Assembly: GCA_019429145.1 (NCBI GenBank)
Contig: JAHYJI010000001.1
Location: forward strand, 2,535-66,534
Origin: Coriobacteriia bacterium
GTDB taxonomy: Bacteria > Actinomycetota > Coriobacteriia > Anaerosomatales > SLCP01
DNA: 64,000 nt
Reading direction: 5' to 3'
The notes beneath the pieces were generated by a model. It saw only the letters and a list, made by a program, of their open reading frames with translations, did not search any database and was not told the origin of the DNA. This document shows positions 1-53,560 of the stretch, piece by piece. Every line of letters begins with the position of its first letter. The first letter of the stretch is position 1. Both the position numbers and the translations under genes were made by a program.

Positions 1-1250
<1,250 letters not shown>

Positions 1251-1334
1251 GTGCTGATCTCCTTTCATGAACAGGCGCCCCTGACGGAGCGCTTGTTGTC
1301 TGCGTTGGTACCGCCACCCGACGGCACCTTACGG

Positions 1335-1363
1335 ATGCTAGAATCTAAGTCGTGCGTTGTCAA
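1335..1363 (-). promoter_or_regulatory. Candidate sigma70-type promoter of dnaK (TTGACA-17 nt-TAGCAT) overlapped by an imperfect HAIR-like inverted repeat
   Basis: The minus strand reads TTGACA (1363-1358), a 17 nt spacer, then TAGCAT (1340-1335), about 85 nt upstream of the dnaK ATG. The stretch CTTGACA-ACGCACG-ACTTAGA loosely resembles the HspR operator CTTGAGT-N7-ACTCAAG (about 9/14 matches). Confidence 0.35.
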
Positions 1364-1534
1364 GTTTTCTGCGAGCACAAAGAGTATACCCGTGAGTGCT
1401 CGGGGAGAAACCCGGACGCCCACATCCGAGCCGGAGTCCGCTCACACCTTTACACGGTGCCCGACGCTCGCTAAGGTACGGCAGAGCCGAGGGCTCTCAG
1501 GCCCCGAACGACCGCACCTGAGCAAGGAGGACCG

Positions 1535-1723
1535 ATGCCCCGACCTGTCATCGTGGAGGACGAGTGTTCCGCCTGCGGAATCTGTGTCGACGCGTGTCCG
1601 GAAGGCGTGCTCGAACTCGTCGGAGACGTGGCCGAGCCGGTCAATGACGAGGACTGCACCGCCTGTGCCGCGTGCATGGAGGAGTGTCCGATGGGCGCGA
1701 TCACCGAGATCGAAGACGCCTAG
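1535..1723 (+). CDS. Small 2x[4Fe-4S] ferredoxin (62 aa)
   Basis: Two CxxCxxCxxxCP motifs (CSACGICVDACP, CTACAACMEECP). AAGGAGG lies 5 nt upstream of the ATG. Confidence 0.85.
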   Translation: MPRPVIVEDECSACGICVDACPEGVLELVGDVAEPVNDEDCTACAACMEECPMGAITEIEDA

Positions 1724-1744
1724 CACTCGGCGCGCTCCTGGCGT

Positions 1745-2311
1745 CTACAGCGCCGGCGGCCTGACCTGGATCGCCTGCATCTGTCGCCACACGCGGCGCT
1801 TCAGGCGCGCATCGGCAAGCGAGGACTCGAGCCCTTCGAGCGCCACGAACGCGCGACCGTTGGCGTGGACCGCCGTACCGTAAGCCGGCTGTCCCAGGTC
1901 GAACACGGCAGCGACCTCGGTGGCCGCCATCGCGTCCAGCGCGACCACCACCGTGGGATCCACCGCCTCGATCTGCATCCTGAGCCGCTCTCGCAGCAGG
2001 CTCGCATCGATGCCTGCTTCCGGGCGCGCCACAGTCGCGAACACCGAGGCCGGGTCGAACCCGAGCGCTTCGAGCGCCTTGCGCGCGGCAGCGCCGTCCG
2101 GGCCCGAGAGCGCTGACCCGCCCGAGACCTCTGCCGGTCCCGGCTCACCCTTCACCAGCACGACCTCGGCGAAGACGTCACCGCTCCAGGGCACGCCGTC
2201 CGAGCCCGGCGCCAGACGGTCGGCAGCGGCAAGCTCGGCGTGCGCCTTGGCGGAGTACGTCTGCTCCAGCTTCGACGCTTCGTTCTCGGGGGCTTGAGGC
2301 TGCCCGGTCAT
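1745..2311 (-). CDS. Divergent uracil-DNA glycosylase superfamily (family-4-like) protein
   Basis: It has a GEPGPAE motif followed by G..SGPDG.....ALEALGF, and later VVALD..AA, which matches the UDG family 4 layout (GEAPG..E, G.PF.G.aG..L). The C-terminal HPS motif is absent. The start at 2311 gives an ATGA overlap with the upstream epimerase stop. Confidence 0.5.
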   Translation of the reverse strand: MTGQPQAPENEASKLEQTYSAKAHAELAAADRLAPGSDGVPWSGDVFAEVVLVKGEPGPAEVSGGSALSGPDGAAARKALEALGFDPASVFATVARPEAGIDASLLRERLRMQIEAVDPTVVVALDAMAATEVAAVFDLGQPAYGTAVHANGRAFVALEGLESSLADARLKRRVWRQMQAIQVRPPAL

Positions 2312-3254: not shown

Positions 3255-3974
3255 CTACGGTGTTGGAGTCCCGGGGGTGTCCTCGAGACGCTGCATCTCA
3301 CTCAGTTCTGCACGGACGATGAGGCGATAGGCGGCACTGTAGGGCGGGTGACACGCCGAGAGCGTGAGACTCGGCACGTCGGTCGTGCGCATCACCTCGA
3401 CCTGGTCAGGCGTGACGGTGAACTTCTCGGTGACCTCGTAGGTGTAGCGGCGGTACGGCGAGAGGAAGTGGATGATGTCACCGGGCTCAAGGTCATCGAG
3501 GCGGCGGAAGGGCGCTCCGTACGTGGTCCGGTGCCCCGCGATGCCGACGTTGCCCGTCTCTCCCGGAAGATCGGTGTAGGTAATCCACCCGGGGCCCTTC
3601 TTCAGCTCATCACGTCCGGTGCCGAGGATCACGACTGCATCGAGGTCCATGCCCTCGATCACGAGCCTGCCGAAGATGTCGCCCTTCCCAAGGCCGGCCC
3701 AGTAGGCGACATCTTCTTCTCTCCACGTCTCCCAGCCGGTGAGCTCCGGGTCGGGCTCGTCGAGCAGCCGATCGGGAGAAGGGGCTCCCATCGAGCCGAG
3801 ATCGGCGATCTGGGCTCGAAGCGCACCCTGCTCGCGTCCCGTCACGAAGTCGGTCACGAAGTAGTAGCTCACGAGGCCCAGCGCGACCCCGATGAAGATG
3901 TTTCCGAGCGCGTGCAGCGCGACCCGCGATGCGGGCCGCCGCTCGATTGCGGCGGTCTCAGCCGTGGATGTCAC
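3255..3974 (-). CDS. Sortase (membrane-anchored, class E-like)
   Basis: N-terminal TM helix, a GHRTTYGAPF (His) motif, an LTLSACHP catalytic Cys motif (a TLxTC variant), and a conserved RLIVRA Arg. Confidence 0.8.
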   Translation of the reverse strand: MTSTAETAAIERRPASRVALHALGNIFIGVALGLVSYYFVTDFVTGREQGALRAQIADLGSMGAPSPDRLLDEPDPELTGWETWREEDVAYWAGLGKGDIFGRLVIEGMDLDAVVILGTGRDELKKGPGWITYTDLPGETGNVGIAGHRTTYGAPFRRLDDLEPGDIIHFLSPYRRYTYEVTEKFTVTPDQVEVMRTTDVPSLTLSACHPPYSAAYRLIVRAELSEMQRLEDTPGTPTP

Positions 3975-4055
3975 GAGTCGCCCGCCTTCCGGTTGCAGTC
4001 AGCTGCCAGGCCGCAACGAGTGTGACGGCCGTTACAGAACACTCTAAGGCTAAGC

Positions 4056-4090
4056 ACGTTTCTTGCCGATATATCCGGTGTAAGAAACGT
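4056..4090. promoter_or_regulatory. Perfect 9-bp inverted repeat ACGTTTCTT-N17-AAGAAACGT in the AT-richer sortase/HExxH-protein divergent intergenic region
   Basis: Read directly: acgtttctt (4056-4064) and aagaaacgt (4082-4090). The spacer gccgatatatccggtgt is itself partly palindromic. Confidence 0.3.
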
Positions 4091-4312
4091 TGAAAGCCGC
4101 ACATCTCCGCAGACTCCCCGCTCAAGGCACAGCACGCCGAAAGACGTGCTTCGCAAAGTCACGGGTCTACCGGAGGGCACGCTCGCCCTCCCACGACAGC
4201 CGGACCGCCGGGTACGAGATCTGGTCGAACCTGCTATCGGCCCGATCCCACCCATGCCACTCGGGAGGGACGGGCCGATGTGCGCACCAGGCTCGCAAGG
4301 GGTGTTCGGCAG

Positions 4313-5020
4313 ATGAACGCACGGATCAAGAGGACCACCAGCGCGATGCGGTTCGCCGCGTTGCTGCTCACCGTAGCTCTTCTTGTGGGAGCTGCTCCCG
4401 CGACGGCCTCGACCGCCGAGATACGCTCGCTCGAGGTCAGCGCCAGGTTCGCATCGTCGCTCGAACCGGAAGCCACACCCGTTACCCCAGCACAGAAGAC
4501 CGGCGCCGACGTTGCCGTGTCCGAGTCCCGCGCCGGGTATACCACGCCGCTCGCAAAGGCCAAGGCACCGCTGCCCAAGCCCGTCGTCAAGCCGGCACCG
4601 GCTCCCGCGCGCAGGTCTGCGGGCAGCACTACTGCAAAGGCCAGCAGCGCACCGAAGGCAAGCAGCGCGCCCGCAAGCTCGAGCGCCCCCAAACCTGCTT
4701 CGAACGCCTCCGCACCCGCTCCCAAGCCGGCTGCGTCCAGCGGGAACACGCTCGCACAAGCGCGCTCGATCCTGGCCTCCCGTATCGCGATGTACCCGAT
4801 CCTCAGGGGTGCGACGGTGGAAATCGGCGATACCAAAGGCAATGCCTCGGCGATCTGCTACTACAAGTCAGGCCGGATCGTCATCAACGCCAACCACAAA
4901 GCGAGTCTCGAGCGAATCATCAACCACGAGATCTGGCACATCATCGACTGGCGCGACAACGGCAAGATCAACTGGGGCGAGAGCGTGCCCCCGAGCAACG
5001 CCGCGGACTTCCGCGGGTAG
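4313..5020 (+). CDS. Secreted protein with Ala/Ser/Pro-rich linker and C-terminal HExxH (putative zinc metallopeptidase-like) domain
   Basis: Signal-peptide-like N-terminus (MNARIKRTTSAMRFAALLLTVALLVGAAPATA), low-complexity KASSAP repeats, and HEIWH near the C-terminus. The start was chosen at the ATG at 4313; the ORF opens at a GTG at 4280. Confidence 0.55.
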   Translation: MNARIKRTTSAMRFAALLLTVALLVGAAPATASTAEIRSLEVSARFASSLEPEATPVTPAQKTGADVAVSESRAGYTTPLAKAKAPLPKPVVKPAPAPARRSAGSTTAKASSAPKASSAPASSSAPKPASNASAPAPKPAASSGNTLAQARSILASRIAMYPILRGATVEIGDTKGNASAICYYKSGRIVINANHKASLERIINHEIWHIIDWRDNGKINWGESVPPSNAADFRG

Positions 5021-5059
5021 GGACAACGTTTGCGGTGAGGCCGGAGCTCGCCGTGTACG

Positions 5060-5137
5060 TGACAGAGCCCCGGCGGGGATAACCCCGCCGGGGCCCCTCA
5101 TCGTCTACACCCGTACGGCGGTAGCCGGAGTACGGGT
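5060..5137 (-). terminator. Repeat A copy 1: two tandem GC-rich hairpins between the convergent HExxH-protein and adhesin genes (U-tract-less terminator module)
   Basis: Hairpin 1 is gccccggcgggg/ataa/ccccgccggggc (5067-5094). Hairpin 2 is acccgtac/ggcggtagccgga/gtacgggt (5109-5137) and overlaps the adhesin stop codon (tta at 5137-5139). It is homologous to 8669-8748. Confidence 0.5.
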
Positions 5138-8100
5138 TAGGCGGCTTTGCGAGAGCGCCTGCGCAGTGCGGTGCCAGTGGCGGCCGCCGCGCCAGCCAGC
5201 GCGAGGAGACCGAGCAGGTCCGCGCCGGTGAAGGGCAGGAATGGCTCCTCCTCGACGGTTACTCTCCACGTGCTGCGATCGTTGTCGGGATTCTGGTCAT
5301 CGGGATGAGTTACCACGACGACGTTGTCGAGGTAGGTGGTCCCATCAGGCATGTTCTCGGAGACGAGCATCTTGTAGGTGATCGTCCGGGAGGCGCCAGC
5401 CGCAAGCGGCTCGGCGAAGGTCCAGGTGATCTGACCGTTGGAGACAACACCGCCGGCAGCATCGACCACGGCAAGGTAGCGCTGATCGAACGTGTCGTCG
5501 ACCACGTAGTCGGAGGCCGCGGCGCTACCGTAGTTGGTGATGACGATCGTGTAGGTGATGGCATCTCCGGGGTCGGCCTTCGTGCGGTCTGCCGACTTCT
5601 TCACCCCGAGATCCGGGAAGCCCAGGAACTCGTCGATGTCCACGAACGCCTCGTCCGTGTCCGTAACCGGCTCGCCCTCAGGGGGAGTTCCGGTCGCTAC
5701 CACGACGTTCGTGGTCGGCTCCGTGATGGCAACCGTCCTCGTGAAGGTCTGCGACTCGCCGGGAGCGAGCTCGTCGATCGTCGCGATGATACCAAGGTGG
5801 TCATCGTCGATGAGAACGGAGGTCAGAGGCACGTTGCCGGTGTTCGTGACGACGAAGGTGTAGGTCACTTCGTCGCCCGCGAGCACGAGCGAGGAGCTCA
5901 CTGACTTCTCGATGTCGATGGCAGGGCTCGAGCCGAAGTAGCTGGAGTCGTCATCGTCATCGACCACATCTTCGCCCTCCGGCGGGTTGCCGACCGCGGT
6001 TCCGACGTTCTCGTACTCGCCCTCTACTGCGATGCCCTCATGCTCGAGCGTCTCACTCTCGCCCGGCGCCAGGACGTCGATAGTGCCGATCAGGCCTTCG
6101 ATGTCGTCGGTGACCTCGATGTCGGTGATTGTCACGTTACCGGTGTTGGTCACCTGGTAGGTCCAGGTGATCGGTGCACCGACAGGGATGTACTCGCCGT
6201 CGGCCCCGTTCGTGAGCTTGACGATCTCGAGTGCCGGGTTCTGCGGCAGCATGACCGTCTCGTCGTCCTCATCGGTCACCGGTGCTTCGTCAGGGCCGTA
6301 GCCGGTGACGAGCGCCTCGTTGTAGAACTCCCCGGCGTCGATGTCTGCCTGTGTGAGGTAGTACACGCCGGTAAAGGTCGTGGCGTCGGTGCCGCCGACG
6401 GCCAGCGAGAACAGCGGGTCACCCGAGACGATGACATCGCCGACCAGGTCGGTGACGCTGACGTTGTAAAGCGTCACGTTGCCGGTGTTGGCCACGGTGA
6501 ACGTGTAGTTGACCGGCTCGCCCACATCGGCGAAGCCGTCAGCGTTGCTGTCGACCCACGTGCCGGACTTGACGATCGAGATCTCCGCGTTCCACGCCAG
6601 CTCGACGGTCTCGTCATCGGTGGCCGGGGCGGACTCATCAGAGTCGGCCGTGGCCACGTTGTAGACAAAGCCGTCGTCGATGTCGTCCTGGTCGACCGCA
6701 TAGGTCGCGGTGTAGGTCCAGGACTCACCGACCTGCAGCAGGCCGTCGCTGTTGCTGTCACCCGAGACGTAGGTGATGGCGCTCAGTCCGGGCAGCGGGT
6801 CGGTGACGCTGATGTTGGAAAGCGTCATGTTGCCTTCGTTGGTCACGACGAACGTGTAGGTGATGAGCTCGCCGGGCTGCGGATAGCCGTCAGCACCGGC
6901 ATCGAACACGCCGGTCTTGACGATCTTGATGACCGGGTTTTGCTCCATGTTGCCGAAGTTGTAGCCGTCGTACTGGAATCCAGGTGCGACGGTGACGGCG
7001 TGATACCCGGTCGCCGGATACGTCTGTGTGTAGCCCGTCTGCTGAATCTCGTAGACGCGAAGTGCGGTCGGACTCTGATTCGGCAGGTAGAAGTAGAGGC
7101 TGTAGGAGCCGTCCTCAAGGGTTGTCGTCTTCTCATCGATGCCCTCGTCGAAGACGCCGTTACCATTGATGTCGACCCAGATCTCCCAGCCTTCGAGGCC
7201 GACCTCATCGCCATCCATGACGCCGTTACCATTCAGGTCTCCCCACTTCATGCCGGTGATAGCGGATCCATACAGGATTCCCTGTGACATGAGTTGGTTG
7301 TCTTCTGACGCTGCGCCGCTCCACTGGTTGCTGCCGACAAGCATCTGATGATAGGGGGCGCCACTTATCCCTCCGGCGCCCATGTCTGGCCCCCACCCGA
7401 TTCCGCTGACGGGAATTGGGTCGAGGCCAACAGCGATATGCCCAGCGTACAGAATCATCACTCTGTCTGCTGCGCCCTCCCACGTGACGGTGAACTTGAC
7501 TGTGCTGTCGCCACTGGTTGAGCCGTAAAGGGCGGGATCGATGCTTACCACAACATTCGAGATGGGAGCGTTTCCGTAGACGTCAATCGTCCGATCGCCG
7601 TATCCGAGCGCCGTCTCGTAGGCCAGCTCCCGCTCAGCAGCAAACGGGCTCTCGGGGACTACGGCCGTAGCGTGGTACGGAAAGTCTGCGGAGGAGTAGT
7701 CCATCCACTTCCAGGAATCGCTCCACACTTGTCCACCGTACGCCTGGGCCGCGTCAATCGCCTGACTCCAACTGGTGATGAAGTCGTACGCGTACTTGCC
7801 GCCCTTGGTGAACTGGTACTCGAAGGTGACATAGCTCTGGGGAATCGAGGTCTCGGCGCCGGTGAGTACCAGTCGCTGCGGAACAGACATGCCTTCAACG
7901 TAGTCTGAGTTCTGATTGTTGAGGGCGCTTCCAATCCACTTCGGGGTCGTGTTCTCGAGTTGCCTGAAATCCCTCTTCGCCTTGCCAGATGTCGCGGCAA
8001 CCTCGACCTCCGCGGGGGCCACGAGCATCGCGCTCATGTCGTCGCCTGCGGGAGCCTTGCTCTTCTTTGCCCCGGGAACTTGGATCTCATCCGCCGGCGC

Positions 8101-8373
8101 AGCCTCTTCGTCCTCGGCTGCAGCCTCTACTTCTTCGGGAGCAGAATCACCCTCTAGTGACGCATCAGCCGGGGCAACAGCTCCCGACGATTCCTCGCTC
8201 TCCTCCGGTACCATCATGCTCTCGATGGCTTCCGGATTACCCTCCTCGGCAAATGACGCGGGTACCGCACCTGCGATACCCGTGAACATCACGACGACAA
8301 CCAGCGTGAGGTACGTCGTGAAAAGCCGGGAGAGCAGTGGCCTACGCCGTAGCGTTCGTGCCATGTCGCTCAT
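5137..8373 (-). CDS. Large cell-wall-anchored surface protein/adhesin: signal peptide, acidic linker, unknown beta-rich domain, SdrD-B/Cna-B-like Ca-binding domain, five DUF11-type repeats, LPFTG sorting signal
   Basis: The C-terminus is LPFTGADLLGLLALAGAAAATGTALRRRSRKAA (LPXTG, hydrophobic stretch, basic tail). It has five copies of the ..TYTFVVTNTGNV.L..V.V.D.. motif (DUF11 / conserved repeat domain). GDLNGNGVMDGDE and DINGNGVFDEG are SdrD-B-like. The start is ATG 8373 or, with better GAGGGG spacing, ATG 8364; the ORF opens at GTG 8466. Confidence 0.85.
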   Translation of the reverse strand: MSDMARTLRRRPLLSRLFTTYLTLVVVVMFTGIAGAVPASFAEEGNPEAIESMMVPEESEESSGAVAPADASLEGDSAPEEVEAAAEDEEAAPADEIQVPGAKKSKAPAGDDMSAMLVAPAEVEVAATSGKAKRDFRQLENTTPKWIGSALNNQNSDYVEGMSVPQRLVLTGAETSIPQSYVTFEYQFTKGGKYAYDFITSWSQAIDAAQAYGGQVWSDSWKWMDYSSADFPYHATAVVPESPFAAERELAYETALGYGDRTIDVYGNAPISNVVVSIDPALYGSTSGDSTVKFTVTWEGAADRVMILYAGHIAVGLDPIPVSGIGWGPDMGAGGISGAPYHQMLVGSNQWSGAASEDNQLMSQGILYGSAITGMKWGDLNGNGVMDGDEVGLEGWEIWVDINGNGVFDEGIDEKTTTLEDGSYSLYFYLPNQSPTALRVYEIQQTGYTQTYPATGYHAVTVAPGFQYDGYNFGNMEQNPVIKIVKTGVFDAGADGYPQPGELITYTFVVTNEGNMTLSNISVTDPLPGLSAITYVSGDSNSDGLLQVGESWTYTATYAVDQDDIDDGFVYNVATADSDESAPATDDETVELAWNAEISIVKSGTWVDSNADGFADVGEPVNYTFTVANTGNVTLYNVSVTDLVGDVIVSGDPLFSLAVGGTDATTFTGVYYLTQADIDAGEFYNEALVTGYGPDEAPVTDEDDETVMLPQNPALEIVKLTNGADGEYIPVGAPITWTYQVTNTGNVTITDIEVTDDIEGLIGTIDVLAPGESETLEHEGIAVEGEYENVGTAVGNPPEGEDVVDDDDDSSYFGSSPAIDIEKSVSSSLVLAGDEVTYTFVVTNTGNVPLTSVLIDDDHLGIIATIDELAPGESQTFTRTVAITEPTTNVVVATGTPPEGEPVTDTDEAFVDIDEFLGFPDLGVKKSADRTKADPGDAITYTIVITNYGSAAASDYVVDDTFDQRYLAVVDAAGGVVSNGQITWTFAEPLAAGASRTITYKMLVSENMPDGTTYLDNVVVVTHPDDQNPDNDRSTWRVTVEEEPFLPFTGADLLGLLALAGAAAATGTALRRRSRKAA

Positions 8374-8420
8374 CCCCTCATCTTCCGGACGCCCCCAAAC
8401 CCTCGTGGGACCGGTCGATG

Positions 8421-8460
8421 AGAGAAAACAAAGACCGGCTCGTCTGTGACGGGCCGGTCT
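8421..8460 (-). terminator. Intrinsic terminator-like hairpin plus U-tract inside the adhesin 5' leader
   Basis: The minus strand reads AGACCGGC-CCGTCACAGACGA-GCCGGTCT followed by TTGTTTTCTC. It ends about 50 nt upstream of the adhesin start codon. Confidence 0.5.
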
Positions 8461-8528
8461 CACCACTGACTCCCCGCCGACGCATCGGTGACCGAACGCG
8501 TGTCGACGGATCTATGCCTCCCGAAAGG
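8451..8528 (-). repeat. Repeat B copy 1: conserved structured leader element (unassigned family)
   Basis: About 70% identical in blocks to 9068-9145 (gggccggtctcacca, tccccgccg, ggtgaccga, gatgcctccc). It has an internal 8-bp stem (minus strand CCGTCGAC/GTCGGCGG) with loop UCGGUCACC. The stem has a G-U pair on the minus strand and a C-A mismatch on the plus strand. Confidence 0.55.
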
Positions 8529-8595
8529 CGCCCGACGCATAGTCGGGCCCACGTATGAGTTTGTTAATGGACGTCATGTCCGGCTACCTAGAGTG

Positions 8596-8601
8596 ACTAT
8601 A
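8596..8601 (-). promoter_or_regulatory. Candidate -10 hexamer TATAGT for the adhesin leader transcript
   Basis: The minus strand reads gggTATAGTcac. The equivalent position in the second repeat unit reads gggTATATTctc (9176-9181). I recognised no clear -35. Confidence 0.3.
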
Positions 8602-8635
8602 CCCACTCCAGGGGGCTCCTCGGGCATGAAACCAG

Positions 8636-8652
8636 TCATCCATAGGTATGAG
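8636..8652. promoter_or_regulatory. Conserved dyad box TCATCC-ATAG-GTATGA, copy 1
   Basis: This 17-nt box recurs at 9215-9231 with one mismatch. Both copies sit 33-34 nt upstream (minus-strand sense) of the TATAGT/TATATT hexamers. Confidence 0.35.
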
Positions 8653-8668
8653 CGAGGTAGGAATGATA

Positions 8669-8748
8669 TGACAGAGCCCCGACGGGGAGAACCCCGCCGG
8701 GGCCCCTCATCGCACCAAGTCTGCAGGGCGGTAGCCGGAGTGCAGACT
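8669..8748 (-). repeat. Repeat A copy 2: same two-hairpin module as 5060-5137, with stem 2 entirely replaced by a different complementary pair
   Basis: 8669-8712 differs from 5060-5103 at 2 of 44 nt. The loop ggcggtagccggag is identical in both copies. The stem arms are agtctgca/tgcagact here and acccgtac/gtacgggt in copy 1. Confidence 0.55.
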
Positions 8749-8974
8749 GGGCGATCCTGTTGGCCGGCCGGATCGTCCGATGGCGCCACCTGAGTCCAGC
8801 TTCGGCCGTAGCGCTATAACACCACTCGCACGTCGCCGCCGCAATACCACATCTGCCCCCACGCGGATCGCGGTGCCGGCGCGCAGCCGCATCGACCAAA
8901 CTGCCCGTGTGAATGGAGCGTGGTTCTGCGAACGATGCAGCCGGAAGAAAGGCCAGTTCAGCGAGCATGCCGAA

Positions 8975-9040
8975 AGGCACAGACTTTGGTCAGCCCCCCT
9001 ACCGCACACCAAGTCAGGCAAGCCGGCGTCGAATCGGCCT
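8975..9040 (-). repeat. Degenerate third A-like fragment
   Basis: cccccctaccgcacaccaagtcaggcaagccgg resembles cccctcatcgcaccaagtctgcagggcggtagccgg of copy 2. Here accaagtc pairs with the upstream gactttggt instead. Confidence 0.3.
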
Positions 9041-9067
9041 TCTACCGCAACAGCCGGCTTGTCCCCC

Positions 9068-9145
9068 GAGGGCCGGTCTCACCATTGGCTCCCCGCCGGG
9101 ATCCTGGTGACCGATGTGATCCGGCGGATCGATGCCTCCCCTAAG
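9068..9145 (-). repeat. Repeat B copy 2 (degenerate terminator arm, no U-tract)
   Basis: It aligns with 8451-8528. The internal stem is kept with different bases (CCGCCGG/CCGGCGG). The distal hairpin is weakened and is followed by GTTGCGG rather than a T-run. Confidence 0.5.
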
Positions 9146-9175
9146 CAACCGCAGAGTCGCGGCGTCTTCCACGAG

Positions 9176-9231
9176 AATATACCCGCGATGCGGACAGCGG
9201 CGCACCAATCCTCATCATCCATCGGTATGAG
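9176..9231 (-). promoter_or_regulatory. Second copy of the dyad box (9215-9231, TCATCC-ATCG-GTATGA) plus -10-like TATATT (9176-9181)
   Basis: Read directly. The box-to-hexamer spacing is the same as in copy 1. Confidence 0.3.
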
Positions 9232-9239
9232 AGTGTCCC

Positions 9240-9264
9240 GCCGCCCGATACACCGGTCGGCGGC
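9240..9264 (-). terminator. Possible lon terminator hairpin (no U-tract)
   Basis: An 8-bp stem with one bulge (gccg(c)ccga / tcggcggc) begins 7 nt after the lon stop codon. Confidence 0.3.
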
Positions 9265-9270
9265 CTTTGC

Positions 9271-11634
9271 TCAGGTCTTACGCTTCTTCATGGTCGGGCG
9301 ACACGACTTGACCAGAGCGTTCATGAGGACCTCGTCCATGGTGGCGACCGGGATGATCTTGAGCTCCTCGCGCACGTGCCCGGGCATGAGTTCCAGGTCG
9401 CGCACGTTCTCCTTCGGGATGAGGACCGTCCTGAGTCCCGCGCGGTGAGCGGCGAGCAGCTTCTCCTTCAGGCCGCCGATGGGCAGAACCCGGCCCCTCA
9501 GGGTGATCTCGCCGGTCATCGCGATGTCGCGGCGCACCGGGCAGCCAGTGAGCACCGAGGCAAGGGCAGTGGCCATCGTGATTCCCGCCGAGGGCCCGTC
9601 CTTGGGAATGGCGGCTGCAGGCACGTGGATGTGCATGTCGAACTTGTCGGCGAAGTCCGGTTCGATCTCGAGCTCGGTAGTGCGGGTCCGGATGTACGAC
9701 ACCGCCGCTTGCGCCGACTCCTTCATCACGTCGCCGAGGTGACCGGTGAGCGTGAGACCGCCCTTGCCCGGCATCTTGGTGGCCTCGATGGTGATGACGT
9801 CGCCGCCCACCTCGGTCCACACGAGGCCGGTTGCGGCTCCTATCTCATCCTTCTCCTCTGCAAGTCCGAACGAGAACTTGGGCGGCCCTAGATACTTGTG
9901 TAGCGTGCGGCCGGTGACCCTCGTCTTGCTCTTCTTCCCTTCGACGACCTTGCGGGCGACCTGCCTGCAGACCATCGCGATCGTGCGCTCGAGGTTGCGG
10001 ACCCCCGCTTCGCGCGTGTACCGGCGGACCATCTCGCTGAGCGCGGAGCCATCGAACTCGAGCTTGCCCCTGGTCAGCCCGTGTTCCTTCAGCTGCTTGG
10101 GGATGAGGTACTGCTCGGCGATGTGGACCTTCTCCTCCTCGGTGTACCCGGGGAAGTGGATGACCTCCATCCGGTCCCGCAGCGCCGGAGGTATCGGGTC
10201 GAGCAGGTTCGCCGTCGTGATGAACATCACGTTCGACAGGTCGAAGGGCGCCTCCAGGTAGTGGTCCTGGAAGGCGAAGTTCTGCTCGGGATCGAGCACC
10301 TCGAGCAGCGCCGACGTCGGATCGCCCCGGAAGTCCATGCCGACCTTGTCGATCTCGTCCATCATGAAGACCGGGTTGTTGGTGCCCACCTGGCTGATCG
10401 ACTGGATGATGCGTCCCGGCAGCGCGCCCACATACGTGCGCCGGTGACCGCGGATCTCGGCCTCATCGCGAACTCCGCCGAGCGACATGCGGATGAATTC
10501 GCGCCCCAGAGAACGCGCGATCGATTTGCCGATCGACGTCTTACCGACACCGGGCGGCCCGACGAAGCACAGGATCGGACCGCGCATCCGGTCGGTGAGC
10601 TTGTGGACCGCGAGGTACTCGAGCACCCGCTCCTTGACCTTCTCGAGTCCGTAGTGGTCCTCGTCAAGGATCTGCTGGGCCTCCACGAGGTCCAGCTTCT
10701 CCTCGGACTCGGCGTTCCACGGCAGGCCGATCAGCCAGTCCAGATAGGTACGGATCACGCTCGTTTCCGCCGCCGCTGGTGGCATCTTCTCGAGGCGCCC
10801 GAGTTCCTTGAGGGCCTTCTCCTCGACCCGCTCGGGCATCGCCGCCTCGGCGATCTTCTCCTTGTACTCGTCGACCTCGGCCTGGACCTCGTCGAGGTGA
10901 CCGAGTTCCTGCTGGATGGCCTTGAGCTGCTCGCGCAGGAAGTACTCCCGCTGCGTCTTGGTCATCTGATCCTTCACGCGACTCTGAATCTTGGAACCCA
11001 GTTCGAGCAGCTCGATCTCCTTGCGCAGGAAGGTGCTCGCGCGCTCGAGGCGTGCGAACGGCTCGAGCGCCTCGAGGATCTCCTGCTTCTCCTCGACCTT
11101 CAGATTGAGGTGGAAGGCGATGAAGTCGGCGAGGCGCCCGGGCTCCTCGATCGCAGCGGCCGCCATCTGCACTTCCTGCGGGATGGGCTTGCCGAGCTCC
11201 GATGCCCGGCCGAAGTCGTGGACGAGTGCGCGCATGAGCGCCTCGGTCTCCATGTCGACCTCTTCGGACTCCTCGATCGGCTCGATGCGTACGAGGTAAT
11301 ACGGGTCGGTCTGCACGAACTCGACGATGCGTATCCGCTGCTGGCCCTCGACGAGTGCCTTGGCGGTGCCGTCGGGCAACTTGAGCTCCTGCATGATGGA
11401 GGCCACGCACCCGATCTCGTAGATGTCGTCCGGCCCCGGGTCCTGGGTCTCTGCATGCTTCTGCGTGACGAGCGCCACCAGATGCCCCTCGCGCATCGAC
11501 TCCTCGAGTGCATTGATCGAGCGCTCGCGACCCACGAACAGCGGCACGACCAGGTTCGGGAAGAGTATGAGGTCCCTGAGTGGAATCAGGGGCAGCACAT
11601 CGGGTATGGCACGAACGTCGCTTTGCTGAGACAT
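9271..11634 (-). CDS. lon: ATP-dependent Lon protease (LonA)
   Basis: 787 aa with an N-terminal LON substrate-binding domain, Walker [10 protein letters not shown], and the catalytic serine motif PKDGPSAGI. Confidence 0.97.
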
Positions 11635-53447: not shown

Positions 53448-53560
53448 CAACGCCCCCGAGCGGGACCCGGACGCTCGGCAGAGGACGCTTATGGCTGCTT
53501 CCTTCCGGATCTGACCAGGTTCACGCCGTACCGCCGTCCGGACCCCGCTCGGGGGCGTCA
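53448..53560 (-). ncRNA. ffs: Signal recognition particle RNA (small/4.5S type)
   Basis: The minus strand contains CCUGGUCAGAUCCGGAAGGAAGCAGCCAUAAG, the conserved SRP domain IV motif. The ends pair extensively (GCCCCCGAGCGGGGUCCGGACG with CGUCCGGGUCCCGCUCGGGGGC). Its position upstream of dnaX-ybaB-recR is classic. End coordinates are accurate to about 5 nt. Confidence 0.8.

What the first reader, a model, noticed from the sequence alone, without database searches (positions are those of the whole stretch)
8669..8748. Paired hairpin modules (5060-5137 and 8669-8748) with near-identical flanks and loop but completely exchanged, still complementary stems
Seen: the first 44 nt (tgacagagccccgRcggggaKaaccccgccggggcccctcatcg) differ at only 2 positions between the copies. 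The 14-nt loop ggcggtagccggag is identical. The arms of the second hairpin are unrelated in sequence (acccgtac/gtacgggt against agtctgca/tgcagact), yet each pair is perfectly complementary over 8 bp. Neutral drift would not leave the flanks and loop intact while replacing all 16 stem positions in a compensatory way. The single mismatch in hairpin 1 of copy 2 is A-C on the plus strand and U-G on the minus strand, which suggests the minus-strand RNA is the folded species. Copy 1 abuts the adhesin stop codon and copy 2 lies upstream of the adhesin leader, so the two copies flank the adhesin gene as direct repeats. Inference: this is a loop-specific protein- or RNA-recognition hairpin, a terminator module under structural selection, or a recombination footprint.
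Basis: seen in the sequence. Interest (0 to 1): 0.6.

Follow-up and report, generated by a model that had tools for sequence, protein, structure and literature searches.

The report
3' hairpin complementary to mRNA start
A conserved two-hairpin RNA module ends the c-di-GMP-riboswitch-controlled surface-protein genes of Anaerosomatales bacteria, and the loop of its first hairpin is exactly complementary to the first ~11 bases predicted for those genes' leader RNA, which suggests (untested) that the 3' module pairs with the 5' end of the message.

Summary
The two modules are real. In adhesin-sense orientation they lie at 8751->8665 and 5141->5056. The stems are not "completely exchanged". In register, 4 of 8 pairs differ, all by transitions on both sides, and orthologues supply the intermediates. 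In 18 distinct copies from about 15 Anaerosomatales assemblies, 9 of 10 pairs of hairpin 1 show changes on both sides. G-U pairs exist only on the adhesin-sense strand.

Each ancestral unit reads: promoter-like GGGTATAGT, 6 variable nt, box AGGTAGCCGGA(G/C), c-di-GMP-II-GAG riboswitch, LPXTG-protein gene, then the module. The 10-mer GGTAGCCGGA (8588->8579) is the exact complement of the loop UCCGGCUACC. It occurs nowhere else in the 64 kb and is invariant in all close relatives. In a diverged relative (L023) box and loop each carry one transition that keeps pairing through G-U.

Best reading (confidence ~0.5): the loop pairs with the predicted 5' end of the riboswitch mRNA. Pairing would be in cis for the 3' copy and in trans or on read-through for the upstream copy, which is the 3' end of a decayed upstream unit. 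Hairpin 2 is a GC clamp without a U-tract.

Closest analogues are s-SodF and the hbs and icaR 5'/3'-UTR pairings. The transcription start, the 3' ends and the pairing itself are all untested. The module is not in Rfam.

The parts
5056..5141 (-). Hairpin 1 occupies 5109-5137 and hairpin 2 occupies 5061-5103.
   Evidence: The covariance model R1 scores it at 99 bits. Its first base overlaps the TAA stop at 5137-5139.
5117..5130 (-). Apical loop of hairpin 1, 3' copy. On the RNA it reads CUCCGGCUACCGCC, and UCCGGCUACC is complementary to the leader box.
   Evidence: The box:loop duplex is -21.2 kcal/mol over 10 bp, and 0 of 5000 loop shuffles reach that value.
8665..8751 (-). It is the 3' end of the decayed upstream riboswitch unit. 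Hairpin 1 occupies 8718-8748 and hairpin 2 occupies 8670-8712, the latter with one G-U pair that exists only on this strand.
   Evidence: R1 scores it at 107 bits. Orthologous copies are present in L002-L006 and L013-L015.
8727..8740 (-). Apical loop of hairpin 1, upstream copy (CUCCGGCUACCGCC).
   Evidence: The loop is invariant in all 9 upstream copies, although 4 of them were selected by this very sequence.
8578..8589 (-). Leader box AGGUAGCCGGAC. It is the predicted first 12 nt of the riboswitch-adhesin mRNA and the exact complement of the hairpin-1 loop.
   Evidence: It is the only sense-strand occurrence of GGTAGCCGGA in the 64 kb. It is invariant in every close orthologue while the 6 nt before it vary freely. 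L023 carries the variant AGGTAGCTGGAG.
8596..8604 (-). GGGTATAGT, a -10-like promoter element 6 nt upstream of the box. This is inferred, not mapped.
   Evidence: It is conserved upstream of every c-di-GMP-II riboswitch in these loci, at constant spacing to the box. The generic sigma-70 scan, which requires both hexamers, found nothing.
8636..8652 (-). Conserved upstream element CTCATACCTATGGATGA, about 50 nt before the -10-like element. It is shared with the upstream riboswitch unit (9213-9231).
8443..8530 (-). c-di-GMP-II-GAG riboswitch aptamer of the adhesin unit. Its terminator hairpin and U-tract lie at 8421-8460.
   Evidence: Rfam RF03169 scores 58.7 bits against a gathering score of 40. 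The terminator is visible in the fold.
5137..8373 (-). LPXTG (LPFTG) surface protein gene with DUF7507/DUF11 ('CLIPPER') repeats. The likely start is the ATG at 8373 (MSDMARTL...), because the longest ORF start at 8466 lies inside the aptamer.
9062..9148 (-). c-di-GMP-II-GAG riboswitch aptamer of the upstream unit. Its promoter-like GGGTATATT lies at 9176-9184. This leader has no box, and no recognisable gene lies between it and the upstream module.
   Evidence: Rfam scores it at 67 bits. The leaders are compared. No homology to the small LPXTG gene that fills this position in L002 and L018 was found. The interval shows indel-rich conservation.
5034..5052 (+). Third hairpin, GGUGAG-gccggag-CUCGCC, between the stop codon (5018-5020) of the convergent + strand gene and the module. 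Its loop GCCGGAG equals the 3' part of the box. It has a U-G pair on the + strand only.
   Evidence: Sequence. It is conserved next to all 3' copies.

Best explanation
The module is the structured 3' end of c-di-GMP-II-riboswitch-controlled, sortase-anchored surface-protein transcription units in Anaerosomatales (Coriobacteriia).

Shown:
- The module is a two-hairpin RNA of the adhesin-sense strand.
- Hairpin 1 is a covarying 8-10 bp stem that presents a conserved 14-nt loop.
- Hairpin 2 is a nearly invariant stem of up to 19 bp, mostly G-C, with no U-tract after it.
- The ancestral unit is: promoter-like GGGTATAGT, 6 variable nt, box AGGUAGCCGGA(G/C), about 50 nt of leader, riboswitch with its own U-tract terminator, LPXTG gene, module.
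- The loop UCCGGCUACC is the exact complement of the box.

Inferred mechanism:
- The box is the extreme 5' end of the mRNA.
- Once RNA polymerase has passed the riboswitch terminator and finished the gene, the 3' loop pairs with the 5' terminus in a 10-11 bp loop-to-end pairing of about -20 kcal/mol.
- Only full-length messages would then have their 5' end sequestered. I favour protection from 5'-end-dependent RNases, with hairpin 2 blocking 3' exonucleases. Triggering decay instead, as s-SodF does, is equally compatible with the sequence.

The flagged copy at 8669-8748 is the 3' module of a second, upstream unit. That unit has an intact small LPXTG gene in L026 and L018. In the window its gene and its own box are gone, but the riboswitch and the loop are kept. 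This loop can therefore only act on the neighbouring adhesin leader box 130 nt downstream, either in trans as a riboswitch-controlled 3'-end RNA or on read-through transcripts. It may also insulate the adhesin promoter from upstream transcription.
For: 1. Structure. In 18 distinct copies, 9 of 10 hairpin-1 pairs show changes on both sides, 95.9% of hairpin-1 cells are paired, and sliding the partner by 1 column drops pairing across the structure to about 50% (hand-made alignment). Hairpin 2 has 3 compensatory pairs in the diverged L020 and L023 copies.

2. Strand. Two invariant G-U pairs, plus G-C to G-U in 5 copies and U-G pairs in hairpin 1, are valid only on the adhesin-sense strand.

3. 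Partner. GGTAGCCGGA occurs three times in the 64 kb: the two loops on the + strand and the box on the - strand.
- The box is invariant in window, L002-L006, L013-L015 and L026, while the 6 nt between it and the -10-like element are unalignable.
- The duplex energy is -19.5 to -23.2 kcal/mol, and 0 of 5000 loop shuffles reach -21.2.
- The box is the best site for the loop along the whole mRNA in 4 of 7 units.

4. Co-occurrence within single units.
- L026 has two complete tandem units, each with box and loop.
- L018 and L023 have no upstream module, so box and loop can only be in the same mRNA.
- L003 has a mini-unit of promoter-like element, box, about 130 nt, then module, with no riboswitch or gene.
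- L021 has a riboswitch and an adhesin but neither box nor hairpin 1.

5. Deep divergence. In L023 (L020 carries the same loop core) the stem, linker, hairpin 2 and the 3' part of the loop have all changed. The 11-nt core has one transition (CUCUGGCUACC) and the L023 box has one (GGUAGCUGGAG). Both leave G-U wobbles, -23.2 kcal/mol. L022's loop variant CUUCGG is also G-U compatible.

6. Age of the duplication. Upstream and 3' copies carry lineage-specific signatures across species (UUCU loop with a G-U pair, against UUAU loop with all Watson-Crick pairs). The duplication is therefore old, and the loop has been held constant independently in both lineages.

7. Precedents. s-SodF is a 3'-UTR RNA complementary to sodN mRNA from its 5' end (PMC3919588). 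The hbs mRNA has a 14-bp 5'/3'-UTR interaction that modulates RNase Y cleavage (PMC5737220).
Against: - No transcription start, 3' end or RNA-RNA contact has been measured. The start at the box rests only on a conserved -10-like hexamer at constant spacing.
- There is no true double compensatory change between box and loop, only two wobble-preserving transitions in one lineage. Roughly 17-50% of single changes would preserve pairing, so this is weak evidence.
- The L003 adhesin unit keeps the box but has lost the loop hairpin at its own 3' end.
- The upstream units of window, L004, L006, L013 and L014 keep the loop but have no box in their own leader. Cis pairing therefore cannot be the whole story.
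- The 3' part of the loop (GCC) is conserved in the close clade without any partner in the box. The loop can also form a small internal 3-bp helix, and the C-to-U change in L023 fits that helix as well.
- In GC-rich mRNAs other sites give similar duplex energies, and the box is not the top site in 3 of 7 units.
- Four of the nine upstream copies were found with a pattern that required the exact loop, which inflates the apparent invariance. L006, L013, L014 and L015 were found independently of it.
Confidence: 0.5

Rival explanations
1. The module is only a 3'-end element: a terminator or exonuclease block, bidirectional at the convergent gene pair, and an insulator upstream of the adhesin promoter. 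On this view the conserved loop binds a protein or has no partner, and the complementary box is a relic of an inverted micro-duplication or has an unrelated role, such as the initially transcribed sequence.
For: - Every copy sits at the end of a transcription unit.
- Hairpin 2 is extremely stable and nearly invariant.
- In 3' copies, which face a convergent gene, hairpin 2 is fully Watson-Crick on both strands. In upstream copies, with no convergent gene, it tolerates a G-U pair.
- L003's 3' copy keeps hairpin 2 but has replaced hairpin 1.
- L019 and L021 have only a plain hairpin at this place.
Against: - No U-tract follows hairpin 2 on either strand, although the same organisms use a U-tract terminator in the riboswitch.
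- A pure terminator or stabiliser does not explain an invariant 11-nt loop core kept through complete turnover of its stem.
- It does not explain the exact complementarity to an equally conserved box (chance roughly 1e-5 or below for a 10-mer, my estimate).
- It does not explain the co-presence and co-absence of box and loop across lineages.
Confidence: 0.22
2. The element works at the DNA level. Box and loop would be 10-11 bp inverted repeats for a site-specific recombinase. Inversion would either flip the promoter-containing 130 bp (upstream loop to box) or flip the riboswitch-gene segment (box to 3' loop), giving phase variation of the adhesin.
For: - Inverted repeats flank a promoter-like segment upstream of a surface adhesin, which is the classic inverton layout.
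- The locus is structurally variable between relatives.
Against: - All of the roughly 15 independent assemblies show one orientation.
- No recombinase gene is called in any of the loci.
- In L023 the two repeats differ at two adjacent central positions at the DNA level (CTCTGGCTACC against CTCCAGCTACC), while staying paired as RNA.
- Stem covariation and strand-specific G-U pairs around one repeat have no role in such a switch.
Confidence: 0.06
3. The two modules are direct repeats whose main significance is recombinational. They are the joints of a tandemly duplicated riboswitch-gene-module cassette and serve as substrates for gain and loss of adhesin units. Sequence conservation would come from their role as unit ends rather than from any loop-specific function.
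For: - The island between the convergent gene and lon holds a variable number of units: 0 in L028, 1 in L018, L021 and L023, 2 in L026 and L027, and one unit plus an upstream remnant in the window clade and L003 (only a module behind lon in L005).
- L018's single module has an upstream-type left flank and a 3'-type right flank.
Against: - The upstream and 3' copies have diverged with lineage-specific signatures shared across species, so there has been no recent homogenisation by recombination.
- Recombination does not explain compensatory stem evolution, loop invariance or the box.
- This reading is compatible with, rather than an alternative to, an RNA function.
Confidence: 0.12
4. Box and loop are operator sites for a DNA-binding regulator, one overlapping the transcription start and one distal. 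Alternatively, hairpin 1 is an RNA-binding-protein site unrelated to the box.
For: - A conserved 11-mer lies exactly at the predicted start site, a typical repressor position.
- A further conserved element, CTCATACC..GGATGA, lies upstream of all these promoters, which suggests protein-mediated co-regulation.
Against: - The distance and order of the two 'operators' vary from 130 bp upstream to 1-6 kb downstream.
- One site is embedded in a covarying RNA stem.
- The L023 variants differ from each other as DNA.
Confidence: 0.08

Closest known systems
[quoted passage not shown]
   Same: - Both are actinobacterial.
- Both lie immediately downstream of a coding region.
- Both are about 90 nt and hairpin-rich.
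- Both carry a conserved stretch complementary to another message starting at its very 5' end.
- The module gives a weak sub-threshold Rfam hit to this family.
   Different: - It is not a sequence or structure member: 29.7 bits against a gathering score of 46.
- The complementarity here is 10-11 nt in a hairpin loop, against 19 nt reaching the ribosome-binding site.
- The target box is far upstream of the ribosome-binding site, ahead of a riboswitch.
- Box and loop usually belong to the same mRNA.
- Processing and effect are untested here.
5'/3'-UTR base pairing within one bacterial mRNA. For B. subtilis hbs, a 14-bp interaction modulates RNase Y cleavage (PMC5737220). For S. aureus icaR, the 3' UTR pairs with the Shine-Dalgarno region (own knowledge, Ruiz de los Mozos 2013; that paper was not read here).
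   Same: There is long-range complementarity between the leader and the 3' UTR of the same message, of similar length (10-14 bp). The presumed consequence is control of RNase access.
   Different: - Here the 5' partner is the predicted extreme 5' terminus and the 3' partner is an apical loop.
- The pairing sits in a riboswitch-controlled mRNA, so only read-through transcripts would carry both partners.
- It is conserved across an order-level clade and duplicated in tandem units.
- It does not overlap the ribosome-binding site, unlike icaR.
Intrinsic (Rho-independent) terminators, including the U-tract-less hairpin terminators proposed for high-GC actinobacteria (own knowledge)
   Same: A GC-rich hairpin lies directly after genes, and a bidirectional position between convergent genes applies to the 3' copy.
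   Different: There is no U-tract. A preceding second hairpin has a sequence-conserved loop. The riboswitch terminator in the same locus is canonical.
REP/BIME-type or MITE-type intergenic palindromic repeats (own knowledge)
   Same: These are repeated, structured, GC-rich intergenic palindromes that could stabilise upstream mRNA.
   Different: The module is not dispersed. There are two copies in 64 kb, both at one locus. The strict-pattern scan found one matching stretch per representative genome, always at this locus.

Membership tests
Intrinsic terminator | A stable GC-rich hairpin at the end of a transcription unit | tested here: met
   Hairpin 2 has 15-19 bp. The modules fold at about -60 kcal/mol with z about -5. 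The position after stop codons is shown.
Intrinsic terminator | A U-rich tract immediately 3' of the hairpin | tested here: not met
   The scan of 4000-9400 reports no terminator-like site at either module. The tails read CUCUGUCAUAUCAUUCC and CUCUGUCACGUACACGG.
Intrinsic terminator | RNA 3' ends at the site | not testable with these tools
   This needs Term-seq or 3'-RACE.
sodF sRNA (RF02790) | Score at or above the Rfam gathering threshold | tested here: not met
   29.7 bits against 46 for 5062-5140(-), E = 0.006 in a 301-nt search. The upstream copy gave no hit.
3'-UTR-derived regulatory RNA (functional class) | Location in a 3' UTR with conserved complementarity to the 5' region of a target mRNA | tested here: met
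3'-UTR-derived regulatory RNA (functional class) | A stable processed or terminated small RNA species, and a target effect | not testable with these tools
   This needs northern blots or RNA-seq, plus genetics.
Intramolecular 5'/3'-UTR pairing (hbs and icaR type) | Complementary segments in the leader and 3' UTR of the same transcription unit | tested here: met
   Met in window, L013, L014, L015, L018, L023 and both L026 units. Exception: the L003 adhesin unit.
Intramolecular 5'/3'-UTR pairing (hbs and icaR type) | Co-variation of the two segments | tested here: inconclusive
   Only L023 varies on both sides that could be read together. Two single transitions both preserve pairing as G-U, and there is no Watson-Crick to Watson-Crick double change.
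Invertible DNA switch | Inverted repeats flanking a promoter or gene segment | tested here: met
   A 10-11 bp inverted repeat links the loop and the box.
Invertible DNA switch | A nearby recombinase, and both orientations present in sequence data | tested here: not met
   No recombinase appears among the called genes of any locus, and all assemblies share one orientation. Read-level data were not available.
Dispersed REP/MITE repeat | Many copies scattered over the genome | tested here: not met
   There are two copies in 64 kb, both at this locus. The genome-collection scan gave one stretch per genome. That scan used a strict pattern, so diverged copies elsewhere are not excluded.
c-di-GMP-II riboswitch (RF03169 variant model) | The module is part of the aptamer or expression platform | tested here: not met
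   The aptamers are separate elements at 8443-8530 and 9062-9148, both above the gathering score. The module lies 135 nt upstream of one aptamer and 3.3 kb downstream of it.

The most novel reading that the evidence does not exclude
In these bacteria a second-messenger riboswitch is wired to an mRNA end-to-end lock. Only transcripts that escape the c-di-GMP-II riboswitch terminator acquire the 3' hairpin, whose loop captures the message's own 5' terminus. Riboswitch read-through would thereby be converted into a large difference in mRNA lifetime. The orphan upstream unit (riboswitch, no gene, module) would have become a c-di-GMP-controlled trans-acting RNA that supplies the same loop to the adhesin leader, forming a feed-forward loop built entirely of RNA.
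Probability: 0.3. Interest if true: 0.78.

Novelty: new variant of a known kind. Interest (0 to 1): 0.58.

Why it matters
If the pairing is real, it adds a well-conserved, covariation-supported case to the very short list of bacterial 5'/3'-end mRNA interactions. As far as I know it would be the first attached to a riboswitch. It would show how an attenuating riboswitch can be coupled to message stability.

It also gives an uncultured-lineage example of a 3'-end module being reused in cis and, after gene decay, possibly in trans.

Practically, it defines a new structured RNA motif that is absent from Rfam, with a simple prediction: compensatory box and loop mutants. It also explains a conspicuous feature of a c-di-GMP-regulated adhesin island whose unit number varies between relatives.

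Tried and rejected
- **tRNA/tmRNA origin of the loop.** ARAGORN found nothing.
- **Known RNA family.** Rfam at gathering thresholds hits only the three riboswitches and SRP RNA. The permissive scan gives only sub-threshold hits: ctRNA_pGA1 at 19.7 bits and sodF sRNA at 29.7 bits.
- **Exact look-up of the window's Lon protein** to name the source. It is not on record. The closest relative by DNA is L004, Anaerosomatales MAG C14-13, about 94% identical over 2.2 kb.
- **Metagenome scan with the conserved arm of hairpin 2.** It gave one true new locus (L006) and six chance hits.
- **Coding remnant between the upstream riboswitch and the upstream module.** tblastn with the small LPXTG proteins of L002 and L018 found nothing. 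The ORFs there run through the module and have no Pfam hits. The alignment is indel-rich.
- **A leader uORF starting right after the box.** It is present in the window but is not conserved in L026 or L003 (sequence inspection). Rejected.
- **Integron attC or IS200/IS605 ends.** GTTAGGC at copy 1 is merely the stop codon plus context and is absent from copy 2. No integrase or transposase gene is present in any locus. Rejected.
- **Box:loop-like pairing in the distant L021 unit.** Only an interrupted duplex was found.
- **Duplex-energy ranking along the whole mRNA.** It is only partly discriminating in this GC-rich sequence: the box is top in 4 of 7 units.
- **The last contig look-up (P0049)** brought a lineage with no adhesin unit at all, so it gave no further covariation data.
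Full report
**1. The observation**

- Windows 5060-5103 and 8669-8712 are a 44-nt direct repeat with two differences (family D11; sequences).
- The 14-mer GGCGGTAGCCGGAG occurs exactly twice in the 64 kb.
- The 23-mer AACCCCGCCGGGGCCCCTCATCG also occurs exactly twice, and none of 100 shuffles gave two matches.
- Each copy folds into two hairpins with z about -5.
- The copy at 8669 folds better as minus-strand RNA (-60.5 against -51.8 kcal/mol), because its single odd position is G-U there and A-C on the plus strand.

The claim that all 16 stem positions are replaced does not hold.

- In register with orthologues, the consensus stem is AGCCCGCA/UGCGGGCU.
- The window's upstream copy changed two pairs and the 3' copy changed two other pairs, all by transitions on both sides.
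- The closest relative, L004, has one of the upstream copy's two changes.
- L016 and L017 show an A.C mismatch intermediate where the window has A-U and L001 has G-C.

**2. Context in the window**

The functional strand is the minus strand. In 5'-to-3' order on that strand the locus reads as follows:

| Element | Window coordinates |
|---|---|
| lon | 11634->9271 |
| Promoter-like CTCATACCGATGGATGATG ... GGGTATATT | 9231->9176 |
| c-di-GMP-II-GAG riboswitch aptamer (67 bits) | 9148->9062 |
| Sequence without a credible ORF, about 310 nt | 9061->8752 |
| Promoter-like CTCATACCTATGGATGA ... GGGTATAGT | 8652->8596 |
| Box AGGTAGCCGGAC | 8589->8578 |
| Second c-di-GMP-II-GAG aptamer (58.7 bits) | 8530->8443 |
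| Its terminator hairpin with U-tract | 8460->8421 |
| LPFTG surface protein, 1078-1109 aa, DUF7507/DUF11 repeats | 8373->5137 |

A + strand gene converges on copy 1. It encodes a secreted protein, runs 4280-5020, and sits behind a c-di-GMP-I riboswitch at 4116-4212. A sortase gene lies at 3255-3974(-).

**3. Relatives**

- A strict pattern scan of one genome per species found five loci, all Coriobacteriia or Anaerosomatales MAGs.
- A metagenome scan added one locus.
- Homologues of the convergent protein led to 15 more syntenic loci.
- A covariance model built from nine copies then located 21 modules, 18 of them distinct.
- Upstream copies are present in window, L002/L026, L003-L006 and L013-L015.
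- 3' copies are present in window, L001, L002/L026, L013-L018, L020, L022, L023 and L027.
- L003's 3' copy keeps hairpin 2 but has a different small hairpin in place of hairpin 1.
- The distant L019 and L021 have only a plain hairpin.
- L028 has no unit at all; there the convergent gene abuts lon.
- The module is not dispersed. It occurs only at this locus in the window and once per matching genome in the scan.

**4. It is an RNA structure of the adhesin-sense strand**

- On the 18 distinct copies, 9 of 10 pairs of hairpin 1 show changes on both sides, and 95.9% of its cells are paired.
- Across the whole structure 95.1% of cells are paired, and sliding the 3' partners by one column drops this to about 50%.
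- No shuffle reaches the observed number of covarying pairs. That alignment is model-fitted. The independent MAFFT alignment gives 7 of 10 pairs.
- Hairpin 2 is nearly invariant in the close clade, but L020 and L023 carry compensatory C-G to U-A and G-C to A-U changes.
- Two invariant G-U pairs at its base, the G-C to G-U change in five copies, and U-G pairs in hairpin 1 are acceptable only on the adhesin-sense strand.
- Upstream and 3' copies carry different signatures that are shared across species: UUCU loop with a G-U pair, against UUAU loop with all Watson-Crick pairs. The duplication is therefore old, and the identical loop has been maintained independently in both lineages.

**5. The partner of the loop**

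- The 10-mer GGTAGCCGGA occurs three times in the window: on the + strand in the two loops, and once on the minus strand at 8588->8579. The third occurrence is therefore the exact complement of the loop UCCGGCUACC in the same RNA sense.
- It lies 6 nt downstream of the conserved GGGTATAGT.
- In an alignment of five orthologous regions it is an invariant island whose upstream neighbours are unalignable. It is present in every close locus.
- The constant 6-7 nt spacing to a -10-like hexamer recurs in about ten leaders. From this I infer that the box is the first 11-12 nt of the transcript. This is not shown.
- Duplex energies are -19.5 to -23.2 kcal/mol, and 0 of 5000 shuffled loops reach the observed value.

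**6. Box and loop travel together**

- L026 is the extended L002 contig. It has two complete tandem units: box, riboswitch, small LPXTG gene, module; then box, riboswitch, adhesin, module.
- L018 has only the small-gene unit, with box and loop and no upstream module.
- L023 has only the adhesin unit, with box and loop and no upstream module.
- L003 has, upstream, a mini-unit: promoter-like element, box AGGTAGCCGGTG, about 130 nt, then the module, with no riboswitch and no gene.
- L021 has a riboswitch and an adhesin but neither box nor hairpin 1.
- Exceptions are the L003 adhesin unit (box present, loop lost) and the upstream units of the window clade (loop present, box apparently deleted from an otherwise alignable leader).
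- In L023 everything around has diverged: the stem is GCUUACG/CGUAGGC, and the linker, hairpin 2 and loop tail all differ. The core is CUCUGGCUACC and the box is GGUAGCUGGAG.
- Those two transitions fall in adjacent pairs and leave two G-U wobbles. The RNA duplex survives at -23.2 kcal/mol, whereas as DNA inverted repeats the two sites would now differ at two central positions.
- This is consistent with RNA pairing but weak, since a sizeable fraction of transitions would be wobble-neutral.

**7. Mechanism proposed**

Shown: the anatomy, the strand, the structural selection, the complementarity and the co-occurrence.

Inferred:
- The 3' loop pairs with the 5' terminus of the riboswitch mRNA.
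- Because the riboswitch has its own canonical terminator, only read-through transcripts would carry both partners.
- The pairing could therefore mark full-length messages. It would most simply shield the 5' end from 5'-end-dependent RNases, while the long GC hairpin 2 blocks 3' exonucleases. The opposite sign, triggered decay as with s-SodF, cannot be excluded.

The flagged copy at 8669-8748 is the end of an upstream unit that has lost its gene and its own box. Its loop, invariant in nine species, can only meet the adhesin leader box 130 nt downstream. That would happen either in trans or on read-through transcripts. It may also insulate the adhesin promoter from upstream transcription.

Hairpin 2 lacks a U-tract on both strands, so calling it a terminator is unproven.

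**8. Rivals**

- A plain 3'-end element with an unexplained loop.
- A DNA inversion switch. All assemblies show one orientation, no recombinase gene is present, L023's repeats mismatch as DNA, and stem covariation is left unexplained.
- Direct repeats as cassette joints. This is supported by the variable unit number and by L018's hybrid flanks, but it does not explain the loop or the box, and it is compatible with the RNA model.
- Operator sites for a DNA-binding regulator.

**9. Comparison with known systems**

- Rfam 15 has no family for the module. The best sub-threshold hit is sodF sRNA.
- s-SodF is also the best functional analogue: an RNA of about 90 nt from a 3' UTR, complementary to sodN mRNA from its 5' end (PMC3919588).
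- The hbs 14-bp 5'/3'-UTR interaction (PMC5737220) and the icaR case (own knowledge) are the closest cis precedents.
- The module fails the U-tract criterion of intrinsic terminators and the dispersal criterion of REP or MITE elements.
- I rate it a new variant of a known kind. It is a new, order-restricted structured RNA motif. Its inferred logic, a loop-to-5'-terminus pairing coupled to a riboswitch and reused by a gene-less upstream unit, has not, to my knowledge, been described.

**10. Limits**

- All evidence is comparative.
- No transcript ends or interactions are known.
- Box and loop variation is nearly absent in the sampled clade.
- Part of the sample was ascertained with the loop sequence itself.
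- The collection scans and contig look-ups were exhausted before more diverged lineages with complete units could be added.

Noticed in passing
window 9062-9148(-), 8443-8530(-), 4116-4212(+): Three c-di-GMP riboswitches lie within 5 kb: two of the c-di-GMP-II-GAG variant model and one of class I. They control an LPXTG adhesin, a gene-less upstream unit and a convergent secreted protein that has no Pfam hit and an HExxH motif in its C-terminal part. A sortase gene is adjacent. The whole island looks like a c-di-GMP-controlled surface-display locus.
   Followed up: partly
window 9213-9231 and 9176-9184(-); 8636-8652 and 8596-8604(-): Both c-di-GMP-II units share an unusual upstream architecture: CTCATACC-N-ATGGATGA, then about 25-30 variable nt that often form a hairpin with covarying arms, then GCGGGTATA(G/T)T. 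It is conserved in all relatives, including L023 and L026. It could be an activator site plus a -10 element, or an RNA element. This is not resolved.
   Followed up: partly
window 8752-9061(-): The upstream riboswitch is followed by about 310 nt with no credible ORF and no similarity to the small LPXTG gene that occupies this place in L002/L026 and L018. The last ~110 nt before the module are well conserved in window, L004, L006, L013 and L014, while the middle is indel-rich. This could be a riboswitch-controlled non-coding RNA.
   Followed up: partly
window 5034-5052(+): A third small hairpin lies between the convergent gene's stop codon and the module. Its 7-nt loop GCCGGAG (CUCCGGC on the other strand) repeats part of the box/loop motif. 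The stem varies between species with some compensatory changes and has a U-G pair only on the + strand in the window. Its significance is unknown.
   Followed up: no
L018 10676-11751; L028 10573-10581; L019 10775-11503: The interval between the convergent gene and lon is a variable island. It holds two units in L026 and L027, one unit in L018, L021 and L023, a second sortase gene instead in L019, and nothing in L028. L018's single module has an upstream-type left flank and a 3'-type right flank, as expected if the adhesin unit was lost (or gained) by recombination between the two direct-repeat modules.
   Followed up: partly
window 5802-6873(-) inside the adhesin gene: Four diverged ~76-nt direct repeats lie 303-351 nt apart (family D1). 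They correspond to the tandem DUF7507/DUF11 domains. Adhesin length varies widely between relatives, from 660 to 1692 aa. L013 and L015 show a fragmented adhesin that may be frameshifted or an assembly artefact.
   Followed up: no
window 8530-8578(-): Between the box and the aptamer lies a conserved hairpin, GGGCCCGAC-uaugc-GUCGGGC, with compensatory changes in L003 (GGGCCUGAC/GUCAGGC). It is not part of the Rfam aptamer model, and its role is unknown.
   Followed up: no
window 53455-53550(-): Bacterial small SRP RNA, 64 bits. This is an ordinary housekeeping gene.
   Followed up: no
window 591-1883(+): This long ORF hits only PF10712 (NAD-GH). From my own knowledge, that model commonly matches antisense ORFs of dnaK. 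Relatives have dnaK, grpE and dnaJ on the opposite strand here, so this ORF is probably not a gene.
   Followed up: no
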